Assembly: GCF_004010195.1 (NCBI RefSeq)
Contig: NC_057721.1
Span: forward strand, 44,657,240 to 44,721,239
Direction of reading: 5' to 3'
DNA: 64,000 nt
Source of the DNA: Chiloscyllium plagiosum
Taxonomy: Eukaryota
This document shows, piece after piece, positions 1-57,739 of this stretch. Numbering within the stretch: position 1 is the first letter of the stretch; each line of letters opens with the position of its first letter. The notes below the pieces were generated by a model, which worked only from the letters and a program-made list of their open reading frames with translations, searched no databases and had not been told where the DNA came from. Made by a program: the position numbers and the translations under genes.

Positions 1-337
1 GAAGTGATGTCACGTGTGATGCATGAGGAATTGTGAGGGGTGGAAGTGGTTGTGGGAGTGGCCATGATGGGGGCAGAAGTGACATCATCAATCAGCGTGG
101 GGGTGGTAGCTGCATCAGCCGCATGGCTAATGGTGTTTCCGAGGCCAGGGGAATCTTCTGGAATGTTCGAGGAGCGCTGGGTATGGAGCTGGGTAGATAA
201 AAGTTTGTTGTACTTACAGTTTTTGATGTTTGAGATGGAATTGAAATACTGTTTGTTGAGAGTATGAATTCTCCTGAGGATGTAGTACAGAGTGGGTCCT
301 TTGCAATTCTGAGAGAGTGTGGCCCTCAGCTGAGGCA
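1..337 (-). mobile_element. Penelope-like element ORF fragment (N-terminal, pre-RT region)
   Basis: Stop-free minus frame PQLRATLSQNCKGPTLYYILRRIHTLNKQYF...DDVTSAP, which I recall from shark Penelope-type repeats; family assignment is from memory only. Confidence 0.55.
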
Positions 338-447
338 TTATACAGTGTTAACTTAAATCTCATTATGAAAATGAACTTTACTCACTGAAACTTTGTTTTT
401 TAAAAGAAAGTCCATTAACCCCTTGAGCCTACTCTGCTTTCCAGTTA

Positions 448-592
448 CAGAGGAACCTCGATTATCCAAAGGACACAGGCGGGGAGTATTTTGTTCAGTT
501 AGTCTGAATGCCAGCTAGCATAGTTTAGCCAAGCTTCAGGACCTTGCGATCTTGCCGGATAATCTGATGCTCGGATAATCGAGGTTCCTCTG
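448..592. mobile_element. Tc1/mariner-type (pogo/Tigger-like) MITE
   Basis: Perfect 20-bp TIRs cagaggaacctcgattatcc / ggataatcgaggttcctctg, with TA on both sides (446-447, 593-594). Confidence 0.9.
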
Positions 593-1107
593 TAGATTTA
601 TAGCTGATTTGAATATCTATTCCATATCCTTGTAGTATTCCTGAATCTCAGAAATTTATCCATTTAAATTTTAAAATTTTCAATTGGTCTTGCCTTAAGG
701 GCCTTTTGGGGATGAGGATGCTAGATTTTTCTATCTCTTGCTTGTAGAAATGCTTCCTGGCAGCTCAAATTGGACATGTGCATGTTCCGGCCATGCTTTT
801 CCAAGCAAGCAGCAAGTTTTGCTCTGATTTCATGGATTGGGAATTTGCATTCCAGTAGATCAGAGACCCCGAAGCAGCAGTGGTTTGTCAGTCAAGATAC
901 TGTAGTATATAGCATTGTACTATATGAATTGCTATGTAATTTATAAGTCTCATCTCAATAAAGTCGTCAAAGCTAAGTACTTCCTGGAAGCCAGGGTCGT
1001 CTTTTATGCAATCGGAGTTGGTAATGGTTTATCTCTATTCACATTGTGCCGACAGTTAAGCTATAAAGGGAATTGAAACTCAAACTCAACAAAATCTTTC
1101 ACTGTAG

Positions 1108-1272
1108 GCGATGAAACAGAGAATAGTTATATCAACCCCTTCGACAAAAGTGGCACCATCTTACAAACCAAGCTTGCACCCCATCAGGATCCTCCATCTG
1201 ATGCAACAACTTTACAATTCAATTACATCTCTTCTCTGGGATCAAGTCAACTTCACAGCCAGCTGTATGGAG
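1108..1272 (+). CDS. TTF2: TTF2 exon ([11 protein letters not shown]...SQLYG)
   Basis: ctgtag acceptor, G|gtaaaa donor, open frame, phase 1-1 fits the next exon; low-conservation linker region. Confidence 0.75.
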
Positions 1273-34200: not shown

Positions 34201-37200
34201 TGATACTAAGCTAGAGAGAAAAGTGAATTGTGAGAATGATGCTGAGTGACTTCAGATGGACCTTGACAATTGGCCAAATGGACAGACACCTGGCAGAGGA
34301 ATTTCAATGCAGAGAAATCGGAGATAATGCATTTCAGTAGAAGAAACATGCAAAGACTATACAGGCTCTATGGTACAACTTTAAGGGGAGCACAGGAACC
34401 TTAGGGTTCTCATGCATAAATTTCTGAAGGTGGCCAGGCAAGTTGAAGCAGTTGTTAAGAAGTTTATAGGATCCTTGGGTTTATAAATAGAGAGATAATA
34501 GCTGACTTTGATTTTTAAATTTAGAATACTAAGCCAAGTAAATTAAGTGTGGGATGAAAAGCAACTGAGAGGAAATTTAGCTCTAGTCATGTGTTGAAAG
34601 TTTTTCAGTGCATTGGATAGTTTTCCAAAGCAAGGCGACAGGCCAAATTTATATACTGATGCACACAGCTGAGATAAGTATCCCTTTACTATTAGATTGT
34701 TAATAAGTGATTNNNNNNNNNNNNNNNNNNNNNNNNNNNNNNNNNNNNNNNNNNNNNNNNNNNNNNNNNNNNNNNNNNNNNNNNNNNNNNNNNNNNNNNN
34801 NNNNNNNNNNNNNNNNNNNNNNNNNNNNNNNNNNNNNNNNNNNNNNNNNNNNNNNNNNNNNNNNNNNNNNNNNNNNNNNNNNNNNNNNNNNNNNNNNNNN
34901 NNNNNNNNNNNNNNNNNNNNNNNNNNNNNNNNNNNNNNNNNNNNNNNNNNNNNNNNNNNNNNNNNNNNNNNNNNNNNNNNNNNNNNNNNNNNNNNNNNNN
35001 NNNNNNNNNNNNNNNNNNNNNNNNNNNNNNNNNNNNNNNNNNNNNNNNNNNNNNNNNNNNNNNNNNNNNNNNNNNNNNNNNNNNNNNNNNNNNNNNNNNN
35101 NNNNNNNNNNNNNNNNNNNNNNNNNNNNNNNNNNNNNNNNNNNNNNNNNNNNNNNNNNNNNNNNNNNNNNNNNNNNNNNNNNNNNNNNNNNNNNNNNNNN
35201 NNNNNNNNNNNNAAGGCTGGTGTCTGTTTCCAAACCTTTATTAACATGATCAATTTAAAAGTCTTCAGCAGTCCTTCATAGAATTAAACAAGGAGTATTA
35301 TTTACTCTCTCACACACACTTGCCCAGAAAATCTCTTCACTACATCAAAAATACAATAAGCCCTGAAGAAATGTACACTGAAAGGAAGGAGCAAATGTCT
35401 ACTAAACTTTTAAGTCCTGTGAACAAGGTTTCTTTCCCACTCAGCAGTTGATGCTCAGGTGGCCAAGTTCTGAATCCAGGTGAATTTGTCATCATTCAAA
35501 GTAAGGGACTGTTCAGCAGGCCATGCAATCAGCCCTGATAGCTCCTGTAGCTAGGTGTCCAATTTCTTTGCAGGTAAGCTGCATTTGTTTTGAATAGGTT
35601 CTCGGAGTCTTTCCAAAAACAACTCAAAACCTCATTTCTTGAAAAGGCCACACCTCTCCACTTTTCTCTTCAGTTGCAACCTTGTTGATTTCTAGTTTGC
35701 GGACTGCCTCAAAGCAGGCAGGAGTTTGTAATAAAAAATTTCAAACTTTGAGTAGTTTGATTACTGGTGAATGTCCATTGACACAGAATCATAGGTAATT
35801 TTGATCTTTCACAATAACAAAGTAGTTTAAATTGAATCCAAAAAAAAATTGACATGCAATAGAAGGTAGGGGTTTTTAGCACTGCATTACAGGTAACCAG
35901 TCTTGAACGCATCCTAAAGCTGCAGAGTCTTGGAGTTTATTGTCCCTGTGTTCTGGAGTAAACCTTAACGATAGGAGTGGAATTCCACTTAGCCATGGCC
36001 ATTCCAGATAAACTTTAGAAATTTCCAAAAGCTTGAATAGTCCTACAATTGGAAAGAAAGATGATAATTTGACAGTCAGTTTATAGCCTCTCCTAGTCAG
36101 TTTTAAAGCAGATTACAGACTTGCATGGGGATCACATTATCTAGAGGCCTAGAATATAATGAGAATAGGTTTCACTACATCTGTCCAAGCCTTGGTTAGA
36201 CCACATCAAGAGCATGATGTAAAGTTCAGGGTACCACATGTTGATAAATGCCTTGGAAGAAGTGCTGTGCACATTTATCGGGACTGAGGATGTTAAATTA
36301 TGAGGAATGTTTGCATGTGCTTGATTTATATTCTTGGAAAATGCATTTTTGTAAGATAATGTGATTTGAGGAGTTCAGGATTTCGAGCGGGATTAATACA
36401 GTAATGGAGAGAGATAAGTTCTGCTGGTTGGAAAGTGTGAAGACATGGGAAGACAACCTTCAAACTGAAGGCCTTTCAGGAGACGACACATCACCCAATG
36501 GCTGATGGAGTTGTGGAATTCTCTCTCAAATGCTATCATATTTATTTAATTTTAAAACTCAGATCAATAGACCTTTCTCAGTGAAGGAAATGTGGGATAT
36601 GGAGCCAAGGCAAATAAACAGAATAGGACATAGATCCGCTATGAACTCATTACAGGACATTGAGCTCATCAGCTGAATAATGTGTTACTGTTATTTCACA
36701 AATCATTTCCTTTAAAAATTGGAATATCAAATACATTACTGATCAATTTGAGCCAAAGCCATATGTCACTTCAGTACTTGCATTCTCTATTATTTGTATT
36801 TATAAAGTTAATTTGAGTTCATGTACAAGAGATCCTACATCAGGGTCTCAGGCTTTATTGAAAAGAACAGAGACTATGTTCCGCAATGAGCTGAAAATCT
36901 GCTATCATTGGAAATATAGCATTCTATCTGGGTCAGACTGTCCTTGAATCATTGTCAATTCACACTCTTCTCAGGTGGATCAAGTCAAATTGTGACTGAA
37001 GTTAGAACTTGGTTTTCATCAATTTGTTGTAAATAACCAAATGCAATGAGGTTTTGTAGCAAATTGGACATTGCTATGAAAGATGTTTTTCAAAACAAAA
37101 TGTTTTACTAAAGAAAGATTGTTTCTCTAGGTTTATCTGTGAGGGTACTATTGAGGAGAAGATCTTTGAGCTTCAGGAGAAGAAAAAGGATCTAGCAAAA

Positions 37201-37275
37201 AAGGTTTTAACCGGAACTGGAGGATCATTTACTAAACTTACACTGGCTGATCTGCGAATTCTGTTTGGTGTCTGA
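1108..37275 (+). CDS. TTF2: TTF2 (transcription termination factor 2, SNF2-family ATPase), 3' part: 17 coding exons, 5' exons outside window
   Basis: Exons joined by hand total 2138 nt in one frame with consistent phases. SF2/SNF2 motifs appear in order: ADDMGLGKT (I), IICPASL (Ia), ILDEAH (II), TGTPIQN (III), [10 protein letters not shown] (IV), AGGVGLNL (V), [11 protein letters not shown] (VI). There is no RING insertion between the lobes (unlike HLTF/Rad5). The C-terminus [12 protein letters not shown] is as I recall for vertebrate TTF2. Confidence 0.95.
1775..1932 (+). CDS. TTF2: TTF2 exon ([13 protein letters not shown]...EDPPYLK)
   Basis: tttcag acceptor, AAG|gtaatt donor; LHRSLESCP...AEDP motif. 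Confidence 0.92.
2833..3648 (+). mobile_element. Probable solo LTR
   Basis: TG-start, internal AATAAA near 3472, ends ...gaatcataac; no TSD confirmed and boundaries approximate. Confidence 0.4.
4818..6670. mobile_element. Penelope-like element with inverted 3' ends (RT + GIY-YIG on -, GIY-YIG + terminal repeat on +)
   Basis: Minus-strand RT motifs ([21 protein letters not shown]); plus-strand NVVYKIP...[16 protein letters not shown]; arms about 4818-5390 and 6065-6625 are inverted homologues. Confidence 0.9.
6755..6880 (+). mobile_element. Short Penelope-derived terminal fragment with hammerhead motif
   Basis: ctgagga-tgtcacc-tagaca-ggggac-gaaa-tgtc at 6805-6838; direct repeat ttcatttgctat at 6743-6754 and 6881-6892. 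Confidence 0.75.
7214..7295 (+). CDS. TTF2: TTF2 exon ([27 protein letters not shown])
   Basis: tatag acceptor, G|gtaag donor; Q-motif region of the SNF2 ATPase. Confidence 0.95.
7707..7820 (+). CDS. TTF2: TTF2 exon (Walker A, DDMGLGKT)
   Basis: ttttag acceptor, G|gtacaa donor. Confidence 0.95.
7997..8343. mobile_element. Tc1/mariner-type MITE
   Basis: Imperfect TIRs caggtagacgatcctttat / ataaaggattgtgcacctg, with TA at both ends. Confidence 0.8.
8470..8760 (-). mobile_element. Old LINE 3' fragment (shares tail with DeuSINE-type SINEs)
   Basis: Reverse complement resembles the tail of the SINE at 27088-27456 and the LINE at 61436-62335. Confidence 0.55.
8907..9057 (+). CDS. TTF2: TTF2 exon (motif Ia, [13 protein letters not shown])
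   Basis: ctacag acceptor, GC|gtgagt donor. Confidence 0.95.
9290..9800 (-). mobile_element. Degenerate CR1 LINE 3' fragment
   Basis: Similar to the reverse complement of the CR1 3' ends elsewhere in the window. Confidence 0.7.
10256..10358 (+). CDS. TTF2: TTF2 exon ([17 protein letters not shown])
   Basis: ttacag acceptor, AAC|gtaagt donor. Confidence 0.95.
10790..10989 (+). CDS. TTF2: TTF2 exon (DEAH box, TGTPIQN)
   Basis: tttcag acceptor, AA|gtaaga donor. Confidence 0.96.
11261..11414 (+). CDS. TTF2: TTF2 exon ([14 protein letters not shown]...[17 protein letters not shown])
   Basis: tctcag acceptor, CTG|gtagct donor. Confidence 0.95.
12875..12966 (+). CDS. TTF2: TTF2 exon (VVLPQK...YNVLFARS)
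   Basis: ccgcag acceptor, AG|gtatgt donor. Confidence 0.94.
13908..14430. mobile_element. Penelope-like element, inverted (hairpin) terminal repeats
   Basis: Same family as 4818-6670; minus arm 13908-14210, plus arm about 14222-14430; flanking direct repeat tgtactgca. Confidence 0.85.
15345..15433 (+). CDS. TTF2: TTF2 exon ([11 protein letters not shown]...)
   Basis: ccacag acceptor, G|gtaaaa donor. Confidence 0.92.
16650..16912 (-). mobile_element. HE1-type SINE, 5'-truncated
   Basis: Reverse complement matches the body of the SINE at 59101. Confidence 0.8.
17123..17265 (+). CDS. TTF2: TTF2 exon (AREFG...[21 protein letters not shown])
   Basis: atttag acceptor (tandem TAGTAG), ACG|gtaaga donor; LRLRQxCCH motif. 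Confidence 0.94.
17844..18014 (+). CDS. TTF2: TTF2 exon ([20 protein letters not shown]...STK)
   Basis: ttatag acceptor, AAG|gtatat donor. Confidence 0.94.
18131..18653 (+). mobile_element. Penelope-like 3' end with short 5' inversion
   Basis: 21-bp inverted repeat gtgaagtccacattgatgccc / gggcatcaatgtggacttcac; C-rich tract; hammerhead-like ctgatga...(a)aaa at 18524. Confidence 0.8.
18682..19175 (-). mobile_element. CR1 LINE 3' fragment
   Basis: [23 protein letters not shown]; (catagagt)n tail. Confidence 0.9.
19630..20400 (-). mobile_element. Highly degenerate LINE-like fragment
   Basis: Purine-biased decayed coding-like sequence; family not determined. Confidence 0.35.
20775..22569 (+). 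mobile_element. CR1 LINE, 5'-truncated RT, nested in an older minus-strand CR1 (about 20545-20770 and 22570-22930)
   Basis: [24 protein letters not shown]; many frameshifts; ctctatgactctat tail. Confidence 0.93.
22982..23040 (+). CDS. TTF2: TTF2 exon ([19 protein letters not shown])
   Basis: tggcag acceptor, TG|gtatga donor; phases link both neighbours. Confidence 0.92.
23470..24190 (+). mobile_element. Penelope-like GIY-YIG/3' fragment
   Basis: FTC...[15 protein letters not shown] and [11 protein letters not shown] motifs; decayed hammerhead near 24136. Confidence 0.85.
24703..24871. mobile_element. Short hairpin Penelope-derived element
   Basis: About 45-bp inverted arms around a partial hammerhead; direct repeat tctggtaaga(c/t)tat at 24689-24702 and 24872-24885. 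Confidence 0.8.
25335..25570 (-). mobile_element. Penelope-like terminal fragment
   Basis: gaaaagcacag..ggtcaggcagca motif shared with the other copies. Confidence 0.7.
26329..26482 (+). CDS. TTF2: TTF2 exon (motif [12 protein letters not shown]...DGSV...FN)
   Basis: tgtcag acceptor, CAG|gtacca donor. Confidence 0.95.
27088..27456 (+). mobile_element. tRNA-derived DeuSINE-type SINE (SacSINE1-like)
   Basis: A/B-box-like head, conserved core (cccatctg.ttcac.aatg.ccttta..gaagaaaatctg), tail ggatgggcaataaatgctggcc. Confidence 0.75.
29456..29538 (+). CDS. TTF2: TTF2 exon (motif [24 protein letters not shown])
   Basis: tcttag acceptor, TG|gtaaga donor. Confidence 0.96.
29638..30010 (+). mobile_element. 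DeuSINE-type SINE, second copy
   Basis: Colinear similarity with 27088-27456; B box ggttcaaatcc. Confidence 0.7.
30790..32738 (+). mobile_element. CR1 LINE, 5'-truncated, relatively young
   Basis: [22 protein letters not shown]...KFADDTK; few frameshifts; (ctatgact)n tail. Confidence 0.95.
32786..32860 (+). CDS. TTF2: TTF2 exon (motif [19 protein letters not shown])
   Basis: ttacag acceptor, AG|gtaatg donor. Confidence 0.96.
33110..34500 (+). mobile_element. Older CR1 LINE RT fragments
   Basis: [25 protein letters not shown]. Confidence 0.85.
34713..35212. other. Assembly gap (500 N) in the last TTF2 intron
   Basis: N run; flanking exons are phase-compatible, so no coding exon needs to be missing. 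Confidence 1.
36120..36690 (+). mobile_element. Degenerate CR1 3' fragment
   Basis: gccttggttagaccaca (LVRPH) and decayed 3' end. Confidence 0.6.
37131..37275 (+). CDS. TTF2: TTF2 last coding exon ([11 protein letters not shown]...[12 protein letters not shown])
   Basis: ctctag acceptor, TGA at 37273-37275. Confidence 0.96.
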
Positions 37276-37560
37276 GCTTCAAAGAAAAACAACCTTACCA
37301 TAAAATTATATTCTAACAAATTATAGTCAAAACTCAATGTGTCTGTACATTTGAGAATTTGAGGCATTTCTGTATTTTGGAAACATTTTTGTGTCAAGCA
37401 TAATATGAATATTGTGCAATTATGGTGCAAGTTATAAATCCTTTAGTGTACATGTTTATGTTTGGTATATCACTTTTTCTGTTGAAAAAAAATGAAACAC
37501 AAAGTTGCATCTTCCCAATCCCTGGAGAAAAGTACTTGTTATATGATTTCATCGTTTAAA

Positions 37561-37566
37561 AATAAA
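37561..37566 (+). terminator. Candidate TTF2 polyadenylation signal AATAAA
   Basis: First AATAAA I found after the stop, about 290 nt downstream, followed by T-rich sequence. Confidence 0.55.
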
Positions 37567-39746
37567 ATGCTACTTTATTTTCGTTAATGATGGGAAAGTG
37601 TTCCCAATGCAAATGATTTTTATTTTACATATGATTTCATTTGTTCAGAATGGGTGCTTAACTTGAACTTACCATTCTTTAAAAACTGAATGTGAGATGG
37701 CAAGTTAATCATTAAAATAAATTTGACTTCTTTTGCAAAATACTTTGGACAAGACTTTGGGATATGTATTGTTTTTTCAACAATTAATCCATTTCATCCT
37801 TACCATAGCTTTTCACCTGCAATTCTTTAACCTGTCATGGATTTAACAAACAATGTAAACATAGCACTTTTACTGTAATGAAATAGCATAGTAAAACAAA
37901 GTGTGACACCCAGTTCATGTAAGCAGGAACTGTGTCAGATCATCAAAATCTAGTTCAGAAATATGTTTTAAGCTGACTTTTAATGTAGGAAAGCAAGGTG
38001 AAGTATAGGAAAGCAATTTCAGTTTTTGTGGCTTAGACAATTGAAGATGTGGCTACCAAGAGTGGAATATTACTGATTGGTCATGCAGTTCAGACCAGGA
38101 TTAGTGGAGAGCAGATCAGAGTTGTGGGCTGGATGAGATTACAAAGATATGGAAAGGAATGGTCTTGGAGGACTTGAAAACTACGGTAAAAACTTGACAA
38201 TCAAGGTGCCATCTGACTGAGAAGCAATTGAAGTCAGCAAGAACTCCGGCATGGATAGCAGAGTTTTAAATGACTGCAAGTTCAAGGGGGAATCAAAGAT
38301 GGGAGATCACCCAGGAGTAGTCAGGTCTAGAGGTAGCACAGACATGGTTGAGGGTTTCAGGAGAAAAAGAACTGAGACAGGTATATTAATGGAGATAATA
38401 AAAGATGACACAAATGAGGTTGAAAGATCACCTGTGATTTCAGTGTTGTACAATTTATGAAATTGTTTCCCTGTGAGTTAATGTACTGTTTCTGAGATGT
38501 GTTTAATGCCAGCTCCAATTGCAATGGGTATCCCCATTGATGATAGAAGGGCTTCTTATGAAATGAGTTCAGATAGGCTTGACACATTGGTCAATAAGTC
38601 TGTTGCCCAAAACAGCCAACAATTCAACAGAAGTTGGCATTAAATGTTCAGTCTTGTTGGATAGCTGACCAGTTAATTGTAGGATGCTATCATAGGCAAT
38701 CACTAAAATGTAAATCCAATTTTTTTTTGATGCAAACCCATTTGATGAGGGGATCTTGATTTATCTTCTAATTGTAAATGTTGGTAATTCTTGCACTAAA
38801 GAACTAAACCAAACAATTACTGTACGTAAATTCTTATGTCGAGTATTATTATTCATGTAAAATCCAGAAAGATTTTAACTGTTGAAAATCTTTGAATTGT
38901 TTAAATTAGTGCTTTTCAAAGTGTTGTGTGGAAGATCCCTTCCAAATCTAACACTCCAAAGCACCATCAGTCTTTGGTTTTCCTAATGTAATCCAAGACC
39001 CAAACACATTGTCCTGCTTAAACTTTTCAATTAGTATTTAGCAAAATGAATATCCACCAATACACAAGAAAGCTGGTGTGCTTGTGCAAACCTAAATTTT
39101 AAAAATAATTTTGGTTGAGCTCAAATCCATTGGAATACAACTTTTTTTTTCCATCTAGAAAGGTGTTGTGCTTTAATGGCTGATATTGTGTAAGCAATTG
39201 AGGTCATCTGTTTCTTTAATTCTCCAATACCTCCATTTCCTGAAAGTTGTCACTTATCTGTGCTTGCAGGTGAAAATTATTTTACCTGTTGGCAATACAT
39301 AGAGGTTATACATAAACTAATGCAGGAGCTCCAGTATTTAATAGATTGAGGAAAGTGAAGTCTGAGACCAATTTGAGTTTATAAGGTACTGTATGAAATT
39401 ATCATAAATCATTAGCAACAAAACTAGTAAGAAAAGTCAAAGACAGAAGAAAATTGCTAGAAAATTTCAGCATCTGATCTGAGGAGGAATCACTTGACTT
39501 GAAACATTAATTGTGACGTCTGTCCACATTTGCTGCCAGACCTGCTGAGCTTTTCCAGCAATTTCCACTTTCATCTGATTTACAGCATCTGCAGTTTCAG
39601 TTTTTATGAAATCAGAAAAGTCAATTTGTATCATTTATGCAAATCTCCTGATTTCAATGGGACTGGATTCCACAAGAACTTTTGAGGAATAAAACAAAAT
39701 AATGCAAATTTATATCTCAAAACAAAGCTAAACTTTAACAACTTAC

Positions 39747-39841
39747 CATTTAACAGAAAATCTGAACATAAATCATTACCATCACTAACAAACTCAATCC
39801 CACAAGGATGATGATGTAGCGTACTGGGATAAACCGGCTAC
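39747..39841 (-). CDS. Transmembrane exon with stop codon, (G)SRFIPVRYIIILVGLSLLVMVMIYVQIFC*, probably the same gene as the C1 exon
   Basis: cattttcag acceptor; phase 1 matches the C1 exon; about 20 uncharged residues; TAA at 39750-39752, then a consensus ATG|gtaagt donor; independently supported by the paralogous exon at 52197-52329. Confidence 0.75.
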
Positions 39842-39909
39842 CTGAAAATGGAGTTCATAGGGTAAGAACACTTGGCTTTGATAACAGATTGACAATATAT
39901 TAACTTTTA

Positions 39910-40045
39910 TGGGCTATTTTGTGGTGCAGTGGCAGTATCCCTGCCCTTGTTCAAGTTGAACCTGCCCAGGTTCAAGTTACACCTGCACCAGAGGTGTGTA
40001 ATAATATCTCTGAACAGGTTGAATAGAAAAGTTGGTTGTAAAAAA
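39910..40045 (+). mobile_element. Short tRNA-derived SINE
   Basis: gtggtgcagtgg A box, ggttcaagt B box, A-rich end. Confidence 0.55.
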
Positions 40046-41150
40046 AAACTAATTTCAACATTCTTTTTTGTCCTTTTGCTTTTAAACAGAGACAACTACT
40101 TTGAATTAATTGATTTACCTGAGTAATTTATGGTCTGTCATAGCTAATTTGGAAGTTTGTGTCTTTCGATCCTTCAATAAATGAGCTAAACATCTTTTAA
40201 TGGAGTTAACTCATGTTACACTCGATCAACTAATATATTAGCATTACTTGAGCTCAGACAAATGTTCCTGCTTGTAATCTGGATATGATATTTATTTTAC
40301 AGCTATTTCCTTAAGCATAACTTGATAATAATTTGATCACACCAACACTTGAGTAAAAAAGCTGTTTCATTACACCACAAGCAGAGCACGCAGTTACATT
40401 TTGAATCATTTAAATCAGTTGGCCAATTTATTTTCCCATGTGAACATAAAATAACATCCCACCCTTCCTCTGCATCAATAGATTTTCTATTAAGACTTAC
40501 TGACTTAAACACGGTACCTTTCTCACTACCCTGCAGCATTTGTAAACATTCAGTCATCGTAAAAGCACTGAGAACTCTTAAATTTAAAAACTGTTCACAC
40601 AAATGAAGAAAAGAATCAAAAAGATTTTAATGTAACACATTCCAATAAGGACAGATATCTTAATGGGTTGCAGATCCTGACATTTGCAATAACAACTTGT
40701 AAATCTGATGATATATAATTTACTGGTCTGAAAAATCATGCATTGAAAATGTAACTGGTTTTTGAATCATTATTTTAAAATGATTTTAGAACAATACCAT
40801 AAATTATGTTAATCTGGCAATTCTGTATTAGCCAAAATTCTGTGCTTCGCAATTGGAAATGTTCATAGACAAAAATAGAAATTGCTGGAAAAGCTCAGCA
40901 GGATCGGCAGCATCCGTGGAGAGAAATCAGTTAACATTTTGGGTCAAATGACCATTCCTGAGAACTGGAAATATTTATAATTGGAGTGTGAATTTTACGT
41001 TCACAACTGCCATGCATAAAAAGGAATCTGTGTTACTTGCCCATTACAAAGGAAAATTTAGTTTGATGAGTCTAGGTTAACAGTGGTATATTTAGCTGGA
41101 CATACTGTTTACATTGGCTGAATTGCCAGCTAACATTACTGGGAATGTAT

Positions 41151-42397
41151 TGTGATTCAGCTAATGTTATTACTGGACAAATCAGGTCCCAGACTAAAAC
41201 TTGACTTGTTTGATCAAAGTTTATTTTGTTTTGTTTTAGCTGTAACAAAGTGATCTCTCAGTAAAACATATGCATGCAGTGCTGCAGATTTTGCTTTAAC
41301 AAAAAGCAGACGTTTATTAATAAACAAATCAAGATAAATAGATTAAACCAAACTATCAACTTGTAACAAATTCATATCTTAAAACACACAATGAAAGTGA
41401 AATTCCATTAATCCCAAAACAATTTGCAAAGAAAAACATCAATTTTTGTTTTGTACCCAAAACACAGTTACATCACCAAAAATATATTTTGCAAAGTACT
41501 CAAAAACATCACACATACAATAGTTATAGAGTCATAGAAATGTACTGCACAGAATTAGATCTTTCTATCCAATTCGCCTATGCCAACCAGCTATCTGAAC
41601 CTAATCTAGTCCCTTTTGCCAACACTTGGTCCATATCCCTCTAAAATCTTCCTATTCATATACCCATCCAGATGCCTTTTAAATGTTGTAATTGTACTGG
41701 TCTCCACCACTTCCTCTGGCAGCTCACACCACCATCTGTGTGAAAAACTTAACCCTTAGGTTCCTTTTAAATTTTCCCCCCTCCCCCTTTAGTTCTGGAC
41801 TCCCCCACCCGATGGAAAAGACTTTGTCTATTTATCCTATCCATGCCCCTCATAATTTTGTAAACCTCTATAAGGTCACCCCTCAGCCTCCAATGCTCAA
41901 GGGGAAAAAAGCCCCAGCATATTCATCCTCTCCCTAAAGCTCAAATCCTCCAACCCTGGCAACATCCTTGTAAATCTTTACTGAACCTTTAAAATTTCAC
42001 AACATCATTCCAATAAGAAGGAGACCAGAATTGCACACACACATGAGAATCCCTTTCTCTAACACCTTGGTCAATTTGATTGTAATTTAACTTCTAGACT
42101 GGGGAAATGCTGATAACTTCTTCCTGGACCTATTTTGTTCATACTCAGCTTTAAGCAACTTCGGCAGGGTTTTATCGCAACACTTATTGTCTTGTGCTAT
42201 CATTAACTCTTTACTTCAAAGTATATCCTTCCTTTCTCAGGAGCATATTGTGATACAAGCACTTTTATCAAAGGACCTCACAGGATTGCTCAAAACTCAT
42301 TGTAAACCTTTAAGCTATGATTGTTCCTTAAACTTAATATAATTCCAGAAACTTTTAGTAAATCTTGATGCCCCATTATTTACATGGCTGAGTCACA
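41151..42397 (-). mobile_element. LTR-like element interrupted by a CR1 (41527-42040, -)
   Basis: Inverted termini tgtgattcagc / gctgagtcaca; the nested CR1 has a tagagtcataga tail; no TSD seen. Confidence 0.55.
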
Positions 42398-43549
42398 AAA
42401 TTTTCATTAATTCCAAATCTAGGCCTCAAAGACTTCTTTCAATAAACTGCTATTCCACAGTCCATTTCTTTCATTGTTTGGTTAAATGTCCAACTATCCA
42501 TCTGCTCAATTTTTTTTCCTGTTTCTTTTAGTTTATTAAACAATACACAATTTACAAAACAATTAACAATAACAGCTGTATACAGAGAAACGGCAATTTT
42601 ACAAGGGAGAGGAATGGCAAAGCCAGGCCCCAAACCCTAACATTCAACTGGTTTTCAGGGAAATGAGGACAAACCTCAAACCCCCTGCTCAGTTTTTTAT
42701 TCAGTCTTCAGTCCCAGTAATTGATTAGCTATCCATGTGAGCATATTTGTGCTCAATGCAGCTTTCTCGATCTTTCTCTTTTTGTATTTCATATCGAATC
42801 TTCATACATATTCATTGTACTGCATACGTAGCAGAATCCTCTGAGCACTACTTTTTGCACATGGATACTTAGATCTTAAAATTCATACTTTTGACTTTTT
42901 TTGAAAATTTCTCCTGTCAAACTGACAAAGTTGCTAATTTTGGGCTGTGTTTCAGGAGGGCACTTGTGTCCAATCATCCACCTTTAATTCTACACTTTTT
43001 TGTCTTTACTAGCTATCAATGGAGTCATAGATTTATTTATAGTATCGGTTATGCTATTTGCATTTTAATAGGCAAGTTTTTTTCATTATATTTGTAAAAT
43101 TAATTCCTTTCAATTATAAGTTTTCATAGGTTTCTTATTTTTTGAAATGTGATGTGCTGCAGAGTAATTTAGTTATACATTTTAAAACTAATTCAATACT
43201 ATTTCATTAATTTAAAATGAGAATTATACTCTAAGTTGGTAACTTTTTTACTACTACTGGTCATACTTTAGTTATATGAGGTGAAAGTTAAATGTTCATT
43301 ATTGTCTGGGAGGAGTTTTTGTAAAACCATAACTTAAGATTAATTAGATCTTATGGAAGTTGAATTTATCCTGCTCGAAATTCTTGCATTGTTGAACAGC
43401 ATGAGCAGTTCATGTTGGGAGCAATAAGATTTAAAGAAAAACAGTATTGATGGATTGGAATCACTTTTTTTTTGTTTCTCACTGTAAAGTCAATTAATCA
43501 GGCCATGATTTTCATACAAACATATGAAACGGTAGCAAAATACAGTTTA

Positions 43550-44330
43550 TTCCCCCAGGTGTTCTCCAGTATTCAAAAGTCATTCTGATCTGCCTTCTAA
43601 GATCAGGAGTCCCAAAGTTACATAGTGCTCTGATATTTTTTTAAAAAACTCCTAATCGGTCCAAACCAGCTGACCTAATTTCAAAATATTTCTCCCGCGT
43701 TTTGAACTTAAACATACAGACCGGGCATTCACCCAAACAAGCTAAGAGAACTTCATACTGATTGGACAATTGCAGAGGCTGATATTTCTTCATTCTGGAT
43801 TCCCCTATCAGCCTCCCTCACATACACATATTTCTGTCCCTGATTAAACAAGACGACCCTACCCTAAATGCTCTGACTACCTCCTGATACCAAGAGCCTT
43901 CGTAACTTTCCTTCAGCTTCCAGCTCATAAACTCTGCGCCAAAGCATCTGAAGCTTGAAATGTTTCTGCTGAAGTGTTTGCTCTGGATCACAGTAGCATC
44001 CAGAAGCTCCCACATACTTCAGCCTCGACACTTCACCTGTCTTCCCATCCTGAATGAGTTTAAATTAATTGTGCAATTATGTTATACACTTATGTTCCTT
44101 TTGATATATTTTACCGACTTTATGACTAATTTATACACTGTTAAAATTAAGAATAAAATAGACAACCGCTTACCAGATACTCACCAAAACGTTAATCCTT
44201 TCCCAAGAACAGAACAAGAGCTAATTGTGACGGGACAGGAAGGGTAGAAAAACAAAACGAATTAAACACTTTCCTCCACCCCAACTTTCCCCAACTCACC
44301 AATCACCAGACTCCAGGATGCATTGCGTTT
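43550..44330 (-). mobile_element. CR1 5' UTR + degenerate ORF1
   Basis: MGRQVKCRG*SMWELLDATVIQSKH, the CxxC-SMWE zinc-finger start typical of CR1 ORF1. Confidence 0.65.
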
Positions 44331-45548
44331 CATTAATCTGTGTGTTTCCCTTGGCTACCCTTTCAGATTTCCACAAAGCACCGCATCAGGTGCCACACAA
44401 GCGGTGCCACAAGCTCATATCAGGGGTGGAGTACAAGCTGGGTAGGGTGCCCGCTGAGTAGGGGGTAGGGCGCCAGGCAAGTCGGGGGAAGGAGGGAACA
44501 AGTCAGATTCGATTTGGGTTTCAGGTCCCACATGCGTCAGGTCAGGATCTGGGGCTGTAAGTGCTGTGGCGATCGGTGGAGTAAGGGTGTGCCAGGTAAC
44601 CGCGGGGGGCACTTTAATACAAGGTCTAACCTCTCTTGCGCAATGATTTACTAAAATGCATCAGGATCCTCCAACTGGAGACTTTTGGAGAGTTCGAGGC
44701 GAAAAGGATATACCCACAGAATCTTCAATGTCTGCTACAATCGGGATTCCGCAGGATTCCTGCACACACTTCCCAATCACTGGAATGTTGGCTGTCTGGC
44801 CATGGGAAAATCCGGACCATTTTCTATCTACACTGGACGTTTCAGAAACTGCTACTTATAGATGCGATGTGGTTTTACGAACAAGATTATCATTTTAAAG
44901 TCTCCACGCACCAATCTCCCATTTGCACCGTTCCCTTTCAGCCATACATTGTCAGGTTGACTGGAGAACCGCAATAAAATACTCTTTGTCTCCAAAAACG
45001 ACAGTTGAAAACATTCTGTTTCGCACTGTACTTTAGCAACGATACACAGTAAGGTATGTAACAAAAAATGCACAGTTCGCCACACTACATGATGGGAGAA
45101 CTCAAAAGTGTAGAACTGGGCGCGGTTCATAAATTGTGCACATTCAGCGATTCAACTTCATATTTCCACTTAGATGAGTAAATGTTACTTAAACAAATTT
45201 GATAAACTTGGACCAGATATGCATTTTTAGAAAGTTAATTTCTCATTTAAACAATTCAGTTTTAATAAGTCTGAACTTACAATAAATGCCGAGGCGCTAT
45301 GGCAATCCACCTGTAATAGAATATTCTGCTGGCAACTTCCTTTGGTTTCCTGACAATATCTTGGATCGCGCTGTGGCAGACACCTTTTGTACGTTCATCA
45401 AACAATGTTGATCTATTTAATCTTCTCTACATTGCCCGACCACTTAATATTGTGCCTTCCGATCTATGCGTTAACATATATCATTTCACAGTTTGATGTG
45501 GACTCAATGGGAGTACTGTGGTGTGGTCAGTATTAGTGAGGCACCTAC

Positions 45549-45848
45549 CTGGACCGTCTCTGAGCCTTGTCCTCACTGACCCAGTGAAGGTCCTGTGCTG
45601 AATGTGACAGGAGACGGTGGCTCCCTGCTCCCGCTGGGGCCTTGCAATCCGCAGCCGGGAGCTCAGGTTGTAACTGCTGTCCGTGTTTACTGTCAGCGAG
45701 CCCGGCTCCTCCTGATAGGAGACATCCCCCTCAACAATCCAGGAAATGGTCAGATCCCTCGGGAAAAATCCCGCAGCCAAACAAGTCAGTGTCTGAATCC
45801 CAACACCTTCATTCTGAGGATCCGCAGTCAGATAGATTTCAGGTTTCG
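45549..45848 (-). CDS. Ig C1-set domain exon of an unnamed IgSF membrane protein (B7-H6/SIRP/tapasin-like C1)
   Basis: tttatttag acceptor, G|gtaggt donor, 300 nt, phase 1-1, no stop. Translation KPEIYLTADPQNEGVGIQTLTCLAAGFFPRDLTISW...NTDSSYNLSSRL...VSCHIQH shows the C1 signature L-x-C-x3-GF-x-P-x5-W and C-x3-H. Confidence 0.9.
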
Positions 45849-47350: not shown

Positions 47351-47794
47351 ATTAATTGTGTTTTATTTGGCATCATACTTGTTGGAAATCGGATCTTTAG
47401 GGTTCAGCTTAGAGAGCTTTGTCTTTTGGGCGGTTTTCTTCAAGCTAAGTGTTGACAAGGATGGGACTGAAAGGATCCGATAGAAAAGCAGGTGCTGCTG
47501 GTGGGTGGTTAATGTGAGATTAAAGGTAAACCCCGGGCAGACCCTGTGCTCCCACACAACATCCCAGTCTGGGCTCTATCTCTGTGATTCTAAGCACTGT
47601 TTCTGTTTCCTTCTCTCACACATTGAGTTATTTCACTCTCCCTTCATCTTCTCAGAGAAAGCTCACTGCACTGTTAACTTCCTGTCCAGGTCAGCCTCAC
47701 AAGTGAAGACATTCTTCCTCCATGCAGTTTGGGCTGCTTCATTTTTAAAGTTCTCTCACAAATTTTATTTTTTAAGTTCTCTATCCGGTCACTA

Positions 47795-48435
47795 GCTTAT
47801 ACAGTTAATGGTCGGGCCCTGGGTGTGTTGCTGAACAAAGAGACCTCGGGATGCAGGTGCATTGTTCCTTGAAAGTGGAGTTGCAGGTAGAAAGAGTGGC
47901 GAAGGAGACATTTGGCGTGCTTGCCTTCACTGGTCAGAACATTGTCGGGCTTGAGGCATTACGTTGCAGCTGTACAGGACATTGGTGAGGCCATTTCTAG
48001 AATACTGCACACAGTTCTGATCGCCTTTCTACAGGAAGGATGTTAAACTTGAAAGTGTGCAAAAAAGATTTACATGGATGTTGCTGGGACTGAGTTACAG
48101 GAAGAGGCTGAATAGGCTGAGGCATTTTTTCCCTGGATGATTGGAGGCTGAAGGATTTTTGAAGAGGGGGTTGGATCGGGTGAATAGCCGAGATCTTTTT
48201 CCCAGGTTTTGGGAGTCCAAAACTATAGGGCATAGGTTGAAGGTGAGAGGGGAAGATCTAAAAAGGGCCTGAGGGTTAACATTTTCAGGCTGAGCGTGCT
48301 GCATACATGGAATGAGCTGCCAGAGTGGTAGAGAGCGGTACAATTACAACTTTTAACTTATAAAAGGCTTTGAGTTGGATATATGAATAGGAAGGGTTGA
48401 GAAGGATATGGGCTAAATGCTGGCAATTTGGGATA
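47795..48435 (+). mobile_element. CR1 3' fragment
   Basis: Colinear with about 31985-32650. Confidence 0.88.
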
Positions 48436-49929: not shown

Positions 49930-50250
49930 NNNNNNNNNNNNNNNNNNNNNNNNNNNNNNNNNNNNNNNNNNNNNNNNNNNNNNNNNNNNNNNNNNNNNNN
50001 NNNNNNNNNNNNNNNNNNNNNNNNNNNNNNNNNNNNNNNNNNNNNNNNNNNNNNNNNNNNNNNNNNNNNNNNNNNNNNNNNNNNNNNNNNNNNNNNNNNN
50101 NNNNNNNNNNNNNNNNNNNNNNNNNNNNNNNNNNNNNNNNNNNNNNNNNNNNNNNNNNNNNNNNNNNNNNNNNNNNNNNNNNNNNNNNNNNNNNNNNNNN
50201 NNNNNNNNNNNNNNNNNNNNNNNNNNNNNNNNNNNNNNNNNNNNNNNNNN
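49930..50250. other. Assembly gap (321 N) followed by a G29 run
   Basis: N run. Confidence 1.
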
Positions 50251-50282
<32 letters not shown>

Positions 50283-52196
50283 CTGAATGTGAGGGCCTAT
50301 GAAAAATCACATTCTAGTACCGATTCGTTTCTTTAATTTTGATTTGTTGTGAAATGATTATCAATATAGTGCGTAAATGTTCCGCACCTATTTCTTTATG
50401 CACTTTGTGATATTTTTGTGTTTGAAGGGTTATTGTTGGTAGTGGTGGTGGTGGTGGGGTGCAGCAGCTTGGGGTAGGGGAGAGGTTTGGGGTGGAGGAT
50501 GTTCCTTGAGGTGTACAGACGGTATAGAAAATATAAATGTCTTTCAACAGGGACATGATTTCATTGCACTTAGAAAATCAGGAGTACACAGAGTCAATCC
50601 GACCTCACTTTCGCCTCATAATAAGGTAACCTGTTTCACAAACCTTTAGTTTTTGAGGATATAGCTAAAGGGCAGATAAGGGACGAAGACGCATTTGGAT
50701 TTTCAGGAACCACCGAATAAAATGCTACACACGAGGTACCACAAATTCAGGTTCATATGATAACCAGTAATATGGTAACATCGACAGAATGCAAACAGGC
50801 ATTGTTGGGTTGACAGACTGTATCCAGCAAGTAAGTCAAGGACCTCAGCTATTATCCATATCAAGAACATGATGAGGATATGAAGTAAAATTATCCAAGT
50901 TTACTGTTGATGAAAAACTGGAAAAAGAGAAAATAAAACTCGTATTTGAAAAGCACCTTTTACATTCTCTTGTGATTTGCTTCTTATTTATTCTGGTGAA
51001 ATGGAATCAAATTTATTGATTTCGTAATCAATTATAAAATTGGTAACTGAAATGCACAGAATGGCATTTCCCCCTCAAGGTTATGAACAAACTTACAAAA
51101 AATAATTTCGGAGAATTGTAGAATCCAGGACACTAGAAGTAAACATGCTGAACTAACTGCTGATCAATAAGAGACAACTTGAGGTTGAAATTAACGGAAA
51201 CGATTCAATACCACGATCTACTTCCAAAGACACATTATGCTGTTAGTTGCAGAGAAACAATATTTTTATTTGTAGATGACTTCTCATTTCACAAACACTG
51301 AGTCCAATATAATTTAAATCAAAATAATTCTGATTTAATTCAATATCCATTTTGAGGACTCCTATTTGAGAAATGGATTTTGATCGATATTGAACTCAAA
51401 AATAAAATGTATCATTGTGTTTCAGTGCCTTTGGCTAAAGCAGACATTTAATAGAATCTTAAAGTTCATTATACAAGTACAATTCACAGAGAGATCGGCC
51501 ATTGAAAATTATGCTTATGCTTAAATGTATGATTTTCAGTGTTCTGTATGGAGGATCCCTTCAAAATCTGCAAAATACTCCACACGACCATCAATCTTGA
51601 CTCAGAAGAACATTCTATTAGCTAACTAAAGGGAAGCCACTGTTGTCCCAATAGAAACCATTTATATTAGCAATCATCAAAATCAGCATAAGCTAACAAA
51701 TGAAGAAGGTTGACGATATTCTCCGATCTGGGCTGAAAAACATGGTTTAAACGTCATCTAATGGGTTTAACTAAATGATTCGTTGTCACTGTTGATCTTA
51801 ATTTATGCTATTAGTAAGCTATCGTGATGCTCTCTGTTTAATTCCATAATTCATGCATTTCCTGAAAGCTGACAGCTACCAATGCTTGCAGACAATATCT
51901 CACCAGCCTGTTTGCAATAATCTCAGATTCGAAATAAACTTAATTGGAATCATTCCGTTATTTCAAAGTTTCAAACTGAAACCTCAAATACTTAGATATT
52001 TTATTAAGTGAAGAAGTTGTCATGACAAATCATTTCTACCACACCTGTAAATATAACCAAAAAAGTTCTCTGTGTCATTATTTATGCACGTCCCTTAATC
52101 CCCATGAGTTGATAATGCTCGCAGAACGTTTCAGAAATGAAGTCAGTCATGCAAACGTTTTTCGTTAAAAAAAAGTCTGTTAAATAGTCTAATCAC

Positions 52197-52329
52197 CGAC
52201 TGTTCACTTGGGGAGCTGAACATAGGTCACTGCGACAGAAACACTAATGCCCACAAGAATAATGTGGTAGTTGTTTAATGATATAGATGAAGTTGTATAG
52301 ATATATAGTTGTATAGATGAAGCAGTGAC
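52197..52329 (-). pseudogene. Paralogous TM exon (...YHIILVGISVSVAVTYVQLPK*), frameshifted by a 37-nt repetitive insertion
   Basis: catttacag acceptor; aligns to the 39.8-kb exon (YIIILVGLS..YVQxxx* vs YHIILVGIS..YVQxxx*); TGA at 52204-52206; possible donor G|gtgatt; the insertion is built of atctatacaact repeats. Confidence 0.65.
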
Positions 52330-52704
52330 CTGTAAATGAAGTTCATAGGGCGGTATCAAGTGATGTGACCATGGACTGACAGTCTGTTAAACCATTCTTC
52401 TGTCCCTTTATTTTTTTAACTGAGGCTTAAGACTGATTAATTCGTTTGTCAAAATAACTAATTCAGGTCTGTCATAGATTCTTCCTGAGTGTCAATAGCT
52501 TTAAACTCTTTCTAAAGTGATCTGAGTGCCACTCAATGAACGGACTTAACAGCACCTTCCTTCATCTTGTATACTAGCGTATTTGACGGTATAACAGAAT
52601 TACCGACTTGTGGTCTAAACTTGACAACTGATATTTAGTTTGTGCATGTTGTTTTGACCTTCGAGAAGTGGACCTCGCTAACAGTGGTGTAACGGTATGA
52701 AGTA

Positions 52705-55329: not shown

Positions 55330-55920
55330 ATCTACGTTGCATGCCTAAAATGGAAACAATTGGTGCAGGCCAAAAAAATGCTTGAGATCTATTCATGCTT
55401 ATTGGTAATAGAAGATGACTTTGCCAATGAAGGTGAATGAAATGTTAGGATAATGTTAAGATTAAAAAAGCATAAGTACTAGAAATATTTGCAGTGCTTA
55501 ACCTGGGTAACTTATCCGATCCCAAACTGAAGTAATTTATAATACTGGCAGATAGAAGGGTAGAAATTATGAAGCTTTTGGGCAAAGTCTTCTCACCTAT
55601 TTATCTACCACACTGGTGCCAAAGGACTAGAAAATTACAAATGTTACACTTTTGTTCAAGAATTGTGAAAAAAATAACCTTAGCGATCATGACCAAGTCA
55701 GTTTAGTATAAGTGAGGGGAACCTTTTGATAAATATAGTCTGCAAGAAAATTAACAGTTACTTGGACTAATAAAGTTGAGTCAGCTTGATTTGTTAAGGA
55801 TAAATTGTGTATGATTACTTTGATGGAGTTTCATCTGATGAGGCAATAAAGAAAACTGATGATAGCATTGCAATGGATGTTGTGTATATGGATTTCCAGA
55901 AAGTTTTTGATAAAGTATAA

Positions 55921-56210
55921 AGCATGAGAATTTCTAGAAGCGTGGCATTCCAATGGAACTCTATCAACAAACACATCAAGTAAGACCCCCTCTACCACCC
56001 CCCTGAGAAAAGGAACAGGAAGCAACTTCACCACAGGAAATAACATCACCACAGGAAATGACATCACCAACCCAAACAAACCCAAAGATATAAATAGAAA
56101 GCAGGAATTTTCAGCATTGCTTCACATGAAGTCCACTGAAGATGTTATCTAGTAAGGTAACGAAATGCCTGGAATTGAACCTTTCAGCTCAGCGAGCAAA
56201 CCTACATCCA
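55921..56210 (+). mobile_element. Penelope-like terminal fragment inserted in an old CR1 (about 55470-56370)
   Basis: Homologous to 6360-6630; direct repeat aaagtataa at 55912-55920 and 56211-56219; hammerhead-like ctgaaga...gaaa at 56136-56165. Confidence 0.85.
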
Positions 56211-57459: not shown

Positions 57460-57739
57460 GGTGATGTTATTTCCTGTGGTGAAGTTGCTTCCTGTTCCTT
57501 TTCTCAGGGGGGTGGTAGAGGGGGTCTTACTTGATGTGTTTGTTGATAGAGTTCCATTGGAATGCCACGCTTCTAGAAATTCTCATGCTTTATACTTTAT
57601 CAAAAACTTTCTGGAAATCCATATACACAACATCCATTGCAATGCTATCATCAGTTTTCTTTATTGCCTCATCAGATGAAACTCCATCAAAGTAATCATA
57701 CACAATTTATCCTTAACAAATCAAGCTGACTCAACTTTA
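57460..57739 (-). repeat. 280-bp inverted copy of 55771-56050
   Basis: No mismatch found by eye; the ORF track gives identical translations for both copies. Confidence 0.95.

What the first reader, a model, noticed from the sequence alone, without database searches (positions are those of the whole stretch)
39747..45848. Unannotated tail-less Ig C1-set membrane protein gene convergent with TTF2
Seen: an intact phase 1-1 C1 exon and, 5.7 kb downstream, a phase-1 exon encoding a TM helix that ends YVQIFC*. A perfect donor follows 3 nt after the stop, implying a non-coding last exon. Known: C1-set domains are largely confined to jawed-vertebrate immune molecules (Ig, TCR, MHC, beta-2-microglobulin, tapasin, SIRP, some B7 members). 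In human, the genes on this side of TTF2 are TRIM45 and VTCN1/B7-H4, which is also nearly tail-less. Inference: this is a shark B7-family-like ligand with a B7-H6/SIRP-type C1 (xKP start, NxDxxYN motif) at the B7-H4 syntenic position. No TRIM45 exon was seen between it and TTF2, and no leader or V exon was found between 45849 and the next paralog, so it may be a single-C1 protein, a truncated duplicate, or have an exon lost in the gap.
Basis: partly seen in the sequence, partly recalled or inferred. Interest (0 to 1): 0.75.

Follow-up and report, generated by a model that had tools for sequence, protein, structure and literature searches.

The report
Tail-less shark paired immune receptor
These two exons are likely the rear half of a short-tailed shark immune receptor whose outer domain matches a family of long-tailed, probably inhibitory receptors of sharks and rays, so it is likely the activating partner of a matched pair and not the B7-type ligand first proposed.

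Summary
The exons are real: a 300-nt phase 1-1 C1-set exon and a 95-nt transmembrane (TM) exon with a stop 3 nt before a strong donor. The B7 reading is not supported. The C1 domain is 57-94% identical to shark proteins built leader-V(J-like)-C1-TM, which RefSeq names SIRP-like or Ig-kappa-like; the family spans 14 named chondrichthyans. Most members carry a different TM and a tail with ITIM/ITSM-like motifs. Two ray members instead join this C1 to a short TM homologous to the window's TM exon (0 and 1 of 5000 shuffles), sharing an arginine. C1 domains group by lineage, not by TM type (p-AU 4.6e-8), as in paired receptors with homogenised ectodomains. Best reading: the short, adaptor-coupled partner of an old elasmobranch paired-receptor family. 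Open: no read evidence for the junction; no leader or V exon in the sequenced window (a 321-N gap lies upstream), so a truncated relic is possible; the arginine may sit at the membrane surface only. Ten paper searches found no description, but the PRARP paper could not be read.

The parts
45549..45848 (-). Ig C1-set exon, 300 nt, phase 1-1, intact
   Evidence: 93 of 99 residues identical to Hemiscyllium P0001 and 91 of 99 to P0002
39747..39841 (-). short-type TM exon with the conserved Arg, a stop codon at 39752-39750 and a strong donor
   Evidence: homologous to the TM of ray proteins P0013 and P0016
39170..39285 (-). candidate start of a non-coding last exon; acceptor at 39285; its end is unknown
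   Evidence: acceptor at the 97.4th percentile; the same acceptor is kept in the duplicate at 51907; inferred, no reads
44192..44220 (-). possible alternative short terminal exon reading LVLFLGKD then stop, in the C1-TM intron
   Evidence: the last 10 residues of Hemiscyllium model P0001 match here exactly; acceptor at the 91.5th percentile
49930..50250 (.). assembly gap of 321 N with a 29-base G run at its edge; possible hiding place of the leader and V exons
   Evidence: the V exon would need about 336-342 nt
52201..52329 (-). decayed duplicate of the short TM exon: stop at the same codon position; Arg, phase-1 frame and donor lost
51300..52400 (-). old duplicate of 38700-39900 (TM exon with its 3' flank), 571 of 995 aligned columns identical
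37131..37275 (+). last coding exon of the convergent SNF2-family helicase gene (TTF2 by my recognition)
   Evidence: SNF2-rel_dom hits upstream at 8807-9058 and 11241-11501

Best explanation
The C1 exon belongs to a shark and ray family of V(J-like)-C1 surface receptors, and with the downstream membrane exon it likely encodes the short, tail-less partner of the family's long-tailed, probably inhibitory form, predicted to activate immune cells by docking an ITAM adaptor through its conserved arginine. Shown: the two exons, family membership, homology of the TM to the short ray forms, tyrosine motifs in the long forms, and C1 domains grouping by lineage. Inferred: the C1-to-TM splice (about 0.85), a leader and V exon in the gap or beyond the window (about 0.65), homogenisation of ectodomains by gene conversion or repeated exon duplication, and escape from nonsense-mediated decay because the stop lies only 3 nt before the last junction. 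Predicted and untested: pairing with FcR-gamma or CD3-zeta, and a ligand shared with the long form, so that a ligand or pathogen decoy that engages the inhibitory receptor also triggers this one.
For: Family: 11 of 127 candidates at E<=1e-5, all shark proteins; 20 of 7999 with a profile, 19 named chondrichthyan and 1 unnamed. Join: P0013 (Hemitrygon) and P0016 (Mobula) place a short TM straight after this C1. The window TM scores 52 and 47 against them (0 and 1 of 5000 shuffles) and 18-39 against the 10 long-type TMs (39 to 4165 of 5000); a shuffle of the hydrophobic core alone gave 0 of 5000 for P0013. The Arg is present in 3 of 3 intact short TMs while its neighbours vary, and is lost in the decayed copy. 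8 of 10 long-TM members have 2 or more tyrosine motifs; 0 of 2 short ray members have any. Tree of 19 C1 domains: the window groups with Hemiscyllium (100/98), P0013 with Hypanus long forms (98/98); a clade of the three short forms is rejected, p-AU 4.6e-8. This matches the description of paired receptors (PMC3533184, passages) and of their ectodomain homogenisation (PMC3210942, passages; PMC5112662, passages).
Against: No leader or V exon in the sequenced window, and the stated gap (321) is shorter than the V exon alone (336-342). No read evidence for the junction. The ray joins are automatic gene models whose RNA support I could not see. 18 (window) to 21 (rays) apolar residues follow the Arg, enough to span the membrane without it, so it may only mark the outer surface. 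The closest shark model, P0001, ends in the short exon at 44220, not in this TM. No short-TM shark protein appeared among the 20 hits. No adaptor gene or binding was tested.
Confidence: 0.4

Rival explanations
1. The gene is intact and short-tailed but does not signal: an adhesion or decoy receptor in the manner of SIRP-gamma, which competes with the long form for a shared ligand.
For: Only 4 residues follow the apolar run, and the Arg can lie outside a 18-21 residue helix. SIRP-gamma is listed as 'no signal' (PMC3533184, passages).
Against: A basic residue on the outer side is kept in shark and two rays while flanking residues change. Homogenised ectodomains are described for opposing pairs.
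Confidence: 0.24
2. In this species the C1 and TM exons are a 5'-truncated relic of such a gene; the leader and V exons were deleted and no protein is made.
For: No leader or V in about 17.8 kb of sequenced upstream DNA. The neighbouring duplicate at 52329 is already decayed and has no C1 within the window, so this cluster does shed copies.
Against: Both exons keep their frames and splice sites. An unsequenced gap with a homopolymer edge lies 4.1 kb upstream. The Hemiscyllium model that shares the intron sequence has a leader and V.
Confidence: 0.23
3. The main product is different: the C1 splices to the short terminal exon at 44220 to give a secreted V-C1 protein, or the C1-TM cassette borrows its V from an upstream long-form gene by alternative splicing.
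For: P0001 ends in this sequence; the acceptor at 44220 is top-decile and in frame. The window has no V of its own in sequenced DNA.
Against: The 44220 acceptor is weaker than 39841 (1.2 against 3.6). P0001 has a single member. In Hemiscyllium and Mobula the paired models have different V domains, which means separate genes.
Confidence: 0.1
4. One reading: a B7-family ligand (B7-H4 or B7-H6 type) at the VTCN1 position.
For: It lies next to a TTF2-like helicase. In the ESM feature search an NCR3LG1-named cluster ranks second for P0013 at 0.96, level with Ig-kappa-like and SIRP-like clusters.
Against: Near-identical relatives have a J-like V end and receptor-type tyrosine tails. No B7-named chain is in the best 60. 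For P0002 the two best ESM clusters are SIRP-named. CD80-like C2-set scores 22 bits against 51.6 for C1-set.
Confidence: 0.03

Closest known systems
[quoted passage not shown]
   Same: Same C1 domain (52-93 identical residues of 87-99 aligned for P0001-P0013). P0013 and P0016 have the same kind of short TM with Arg.
   Different: The window form stops 4 residues after the apolar run; the ray forms keep a 14-residue tail. The names are automatic and disagree with one another; I found no paper on the family.
Mammalian SIRP family (SIRP-alpha, -beta1, -gamma)
   Same: V domain with a J-like end followed by C1; SIRP-alpha is the best solved-structure match of P0002 (E 6e-20). Long and short members; up to four tyrosine motifs. 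Two ray long forms are V-C1-C1.
   Different: Usually one C1. The short form has an Arg near the outer face, whereas SIRP-beta couples to DAP12 through a Lys (recalled). Orthology and CD47 binding are untested; PMC13262535 groups SIRPs under Tetrapoda (passage).
PRARP (Fu et al. 2019, PMID 30770416; not held, seen only as a citation)
   Same: Named among non-rearranging VJ receptors. As I recall it, V-C1 with ITIM/ITSM motifs outside birds.
   Different: I recall no activating partner. No sequence was in hand, so the shark family may or may not be PRARP.
UrIg and UrIg2 (PMC12227049; abstract and passages)
   Same: Non-rearranging elasmobranch VJ-C1 genes; the UrIg2 structure ranks 2nd to 3rd.
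   Different: UrIg2 has up to 10 Ig domains, an Fc-like part and an IgM-like TM, and is linked to the antigen receptor cluster; this family has 2-3 domains and tyrosine tails or a short Arg TM.
Arg-TM, FcR-gamma-coupled activating receptors (LILRA, DCAR; PMC3533184, passages)
   Same: Short tail, no ITIM, basic TM residue, near-identical inhibitory partner.
   Different: Different ectodomain class; here the apolar run after the Arg is long, so the Arg may not be buried.

Membership tests
Paired Ig-like receptors (as a kind) | Near-identical ectodomains on opposing members | tested here: met
   C1 trees group by lineage, short clade rejected; window C1 91 of 99 identical to long form P0002 of a related genus. 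The long form of the window's own species was not seen.
Paired Ig-like receptors (as a kind) | Inhibitory member with ITIM/ITSM motifs | tested here: met
   8 of 10 long-TM members have 2 or more tyrosine motifs by a permissive pattern; motif only, no function
Paired Ig-like receptors (as a kind) | Activating member with short tail and a basic residue inside the TM | tested here: inconclusive
   Short tail and Arg in 3 of 3, but 18-21 apolar residues follow it
Paired Ig-like receptors (as a kind) | Members clustered on one chromosome | tested here: inconclusive
   P0001/P0002 and P0014/P0018 share the same longest-contig length; the window holds a decayed duplicate 12.5 kb away but no long-form exon
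Paired Ig-like receptors (as a kind) | Adaptor binding, shared ligand, overlapping expression | not testable with these tools
   needs bench work and reads
SIRP family | V(J-like)-C1(-C1) ectodomain | tested here: met
   Pfam V-set plus C1-set in relatives; alignment to SIRP-alpha. The V is missing from the window itself.
SIRP family | Short member couples to DAP12 through a mid-TM lysine (recalled feature) | tested here: not met
   No Lys in the apolar run of the three short TMs
SIRP family | Orthology by phylogeny and synteny; CD47 binding | not testable with these tools
   No tetrapod SIRP sequence was returned as a usable record; no genome held
B7 family (VTCN1/B7-H4, NCR3LG1/B7-H6) | Closest sequence relatives are B7 members | tested here: not met
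   None among the 20 relatives or the best 60 solved chains; one NCR3LG1-named ESM cluster ties at 0.96
B7 family (VTCN1/B7-H4, NCR3LG1/B7-H6) | IgV-IgC ectodomain | tested here: inconclusive
   V-C is present in relatives but is shared with SIRP, Ig and TCR; C1-set beats CD80-like C2-set, which fits B7-H6 but not B7-H4 (recalled)
B7 family (VTCN1/B7-H4, NCR3LG1/B7-H6) | Position orthologous to VTCN1 | not testable with these tools
   Only one flanking gene is in the window; no genome
PRARP | Sequence and synteny match to described PRARP genes | not testable with these tools
   Paper not held; no sequence available
PRARP | Joined VJ, C1 and inhibitory motifs (recalled) | tested here: met
   J-like V end such as FQGNGTTLNI in P0001/P0002 and tyrosine motifs; not diagnostic by itself

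The most novel reading that the evidence does not exclude
Cartilaginous fish keep an undescribed paired-receptor system built from non-rearranging VJ-C1 chains, the architecture of a TCR or Ig light chain. Its two signalling ends date from before the shark-ray split while its ectodomains are rewritten in each lineage, and its activating member couples to CD3-zeta or FcR-gamma through a TM arginine: a living model of an adaptor-coupled antigen-receptor-like chain from before RAG.
Probability: 0.2. Interest if true: 0.75.

Novelty: new member of a known kind. Interest (0 to 1): 0.5.

Why it matters
Non-rearranging VJ-C1 genes are sought as relics of the gene that RAG split to make antibodies and T-cell receptors (PMC12227049, PMC10751288; passages). 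A family of this build with an inhibitory and a short form in sharks and rays would show that opposing paired receptors, with lineage-wise homogenised ectodomains, were already built on the antigen-receptor scaffold in the oldest jawed lineage. It also gives two simple tests: the splice junction and Arg-dependent adaptor binding. It would correct five conflicting automatic names. If the copy here is truncated, the family-level result still stands, but this locus is only a relic.

Tried and rejected
Whole-genome search: none held. Cluster members and accessions: query could not be made. Sequencing runs: 12 of 24 listed runs hold part of the C1 exon, in 4 studies; no RNA holder listed; no evidence either way, and no reads were laid. 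phmmer of the 34-residue TM frame against 1.84 billion representatives: 0 hits at E<=0.001, expected for so short a query. AlphaFold2 on a 10-row alignment: mean pLDDT 49, too low, so no fold search was run. Leader scan upstream of the C1 (ATG, 31-79 nt, strong phase-1 donor, hydrophobic): 0 candidates. A 7-residue leader-like match at 57912-57892 has no in-frame ATG or donor by eye; rejected. ETS/ISRE-like motifs at 47400-47800: 5 per 400 nt against a mean of 2.2 over 620 windows, with at least 8 windows higher; not special. TRIM45/VTCN1 exons: none in 96 of 98 frames. Marker tables of a bamboo shark single-cell study (PMC11372145; main text 0 hits; supplement rows; file cut when stored): one SIRP-like gene marks kidney tubular cells and one kappa-like gene marks T cells, but neither can be tied to this locus. 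Elephant shark genome supplement: 0 hits for six terms. Earlier scan findings: nothing related. Fu 2019 and Ohta 2019 not held. No complex prediction was run: no adaptor sequence was in hand. Isoform models P0004, P0007, P0008 were left out, and P0018 out of the C1 tree.
Full report
Observation. The C1 exon (45848-45549, minus) is 300 nt, phase 1-1 and open; the TM exon (39841-39747) is 95 nt with a stop 3 nt before GTAAGT. Pfam gives C1-set at 51.6 bits. With approximate splice matrices of my own, both donors rank above the 99.7th percentile and the acceptors at the 83.6th and 96.5th; 1 of 34 strong acceptors downstream of the C1 opens a TM-like phase-1 frame, and it is this one. The convergent neighbour is a SNF2-family helicase ending at 37275; calling it TTF2 is recognition, not a call result.

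Family. The C1 found 11 shark proteins among 127 candidates. A search with P0001 gave 13 of 729 and a profile search 20 of 7999: 14 named species of sharks, rays and a chimaera, plus one unnamed record. No bony vertebrate passed, but these searches need shared exact words, so that is weak. The design is leader, V with a J-like end, C1, TM. The window C1 is 93 of 99 identical to Hemiscyllium P0001 and 91 of 99 to P0002, so the window is from a close relative of that genus. Automatic names range over SIRP-alpha-like, SIRP-beta-like, Ig-kappa-like, Ig heavy chain-like and TCR-beta-like.

Two kinds of membrane end. Of 17 proteins examined (three isoform models left out), 14 had a segment after the C1. 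Ten have a long-type TM, and 8 of these have 2 or more tyrosine motifs such as LHYASV, TEYAVL and TTYASL; two lack a TM; two ray proteins, P0013 and P0016, have a different TM and a 14-residue tail with no motif. The window TM matches those two (scores 52 and 47; 0 and 1 of 5000 shuffles) and not clearly the long type (18-39; 39 to 4165 of 5000). Pairwise BLAST agrees: E 2e-5 for P0013, 1.7 for P0002. Two long types reach about 40 of 5000, so the two TM kinds may be remotely related. This is the main support for the C1-to-TM join: rays use the same join in their gene models. It is indirect; no reads were laid.

Pairing. In a tree of 19 C1 domains the short forms fall with long forms of their own lineage: window with Hemiscyllium (100/98), P0013 with Hypanus (98/98), P0016 in a group of six ray domains (98/93). 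Holding the three short forms together costs 154.7 log units, p-AU 4.6e-8. V domains show the same pattern where available. So the short TM is older than the shark-ray split while the ectodomains are renewed within lineages, by gene conversion or repeated duplication (inferred; no DNA of relatives in hand). Opposing receptors with homogenised ligand-binding exons are described in PMC3210942 and PMC5112662 (passages), and the short-tail-plus-basic-residue rule in PMC3533184 (passages).

Mechanism. An Arg at the start of the TM is kept in 3 of 3 intact short forms. By analogy with LILRA and DCAR I predict coupling to an ITAM adaptor. Against this, 18 to 21 apolar residues follow the Arg, so it need not be buried; a silent, SIRP-gamma-like role remains. 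The odd donor 3 nt after the stop is best read as the old TM-to-tail intron, still coding in rays (boundary inferred from protein only). A strong acceptor at 39285 is kept in the duplicate and would start a non-coding last exon; a stop so near the last junction would escape nonsense-mediated decay (established rule, recalled).

The duplicate. 51300-52400 aligns with 38700-39900 at 571 of 995 columns. Its TM exon has the stop at the same codon position, so tail loss predates that duplication. It has lost the Arg, the donor and the phase-1 frame and has no C1 in the window: a dead copy. The TM exon (59%) is no better conserved than the region (57%), as expected if one copy decayed.

What is missing. 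No leader, V, long-type TM or tail exon is in the sequenced window. A 321-N gap with a 29-base G run lies 4.1 kb upstream; the V exon alone needs 336-342 nt, so the gap would have to be larger than stated, or the 5' exons lie beyond 64000, or they are lost. The last 10 residues of P0001 match 44224-44195, which marks P0001 as probably the same locus, with a leader and V, and offers a rival terminal exon at 44220.

B7 test. No B7-named chain is among the best 60 solved-structure matches for the C1, for P0002 or for the profile; SIRP-alpha ranks first for P0002, and UrIg2 and antibody chains rank near the top. ESM features put SIRP-named clusters first for P0002 and tie Ig-kappa-like, NCR3LG1-named and SIRP-named clusters for P0013. 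The motifs cited for B7-H6 are in SIRP-alpha too. Position next to TTF2 alone does not make it VTCN1.

Literature. Ten searches found no description of this family. I saw passages of PMC11599192, PMC10751288, PMC13262535, and the abstract and passages of PMC12227049. The two most relevant papers, Fu 2019 (PRARP) and Ohta 2019, are not held; what I say of PRARP beyond its listing as a VJ gene is recalled, and the family may be described there or in supplements I could not see.

Verdict. Real exons; family membership about 0.95; short-type join about 0.85; intact gene about 0.65; adaptor-coupled activation 0.4 overall. It works like a SIRP-type paired receptor; membership of SIRP or PRARP is open; B7 is unlikely. 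Interest 0.5.

Noticed in passing
window 55771-56050 and 57460-57739: A 280-bp, 100% identical inverted repeat pair about 1.4 kb apart; looks like a young mobile-element insertion.
   Followed up: no
P0002 residues 249-325; also P0003, P0004, P0009, P0011: Long-form tails give weak Pfam DUF4578 hits (17.1-25.6 bits, all under the cut-off of 27): P0002 and 4 of 8 proteins. I recall the human member as C1orf162 on 1p13, the band that also holds TTF2; untested, and may be generic tyrosine-motif likeness.
   Followed up: partly
P0014, P0015: Two ray long forms carry a near-identical tandem C1 pair (V-C1-C1), the domain count of SIRP-alpha.
   Followed up: partly
P0005, P0007: Isoform models that skip the TM exon and run from C1 straight into the tail; would be soluble if real.
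   Followed up: no
V domains of P0001, P0002, P0003, P0005, P0010, P0011: An extra Cys directly after the C-strand Trp in 6 of 10 aligned proteins; absent in the ray members.
   Followed up: no
window 44400-43850 (minus): The stretch holding the alternative terminal exon looks by eye like the 5' part of a decayed LINE; no Pfam hit, so unconfirmed.
   Followed up: partly
window 38974-38848 and 51598-51468: A 127-column block is better kept between the two duplicates (71%) than the region as a whole (57%); possibly a 3' UTR element.
   Followed up: no
window 37276-39285: Only about 2 kb separate the helicase stop from the candidate last exon, so the two 3' UTRs may meet or overlap; 9 poly(A)-like hexamers lie on the minus strand between 39746 and 36000.
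   Followed up: no
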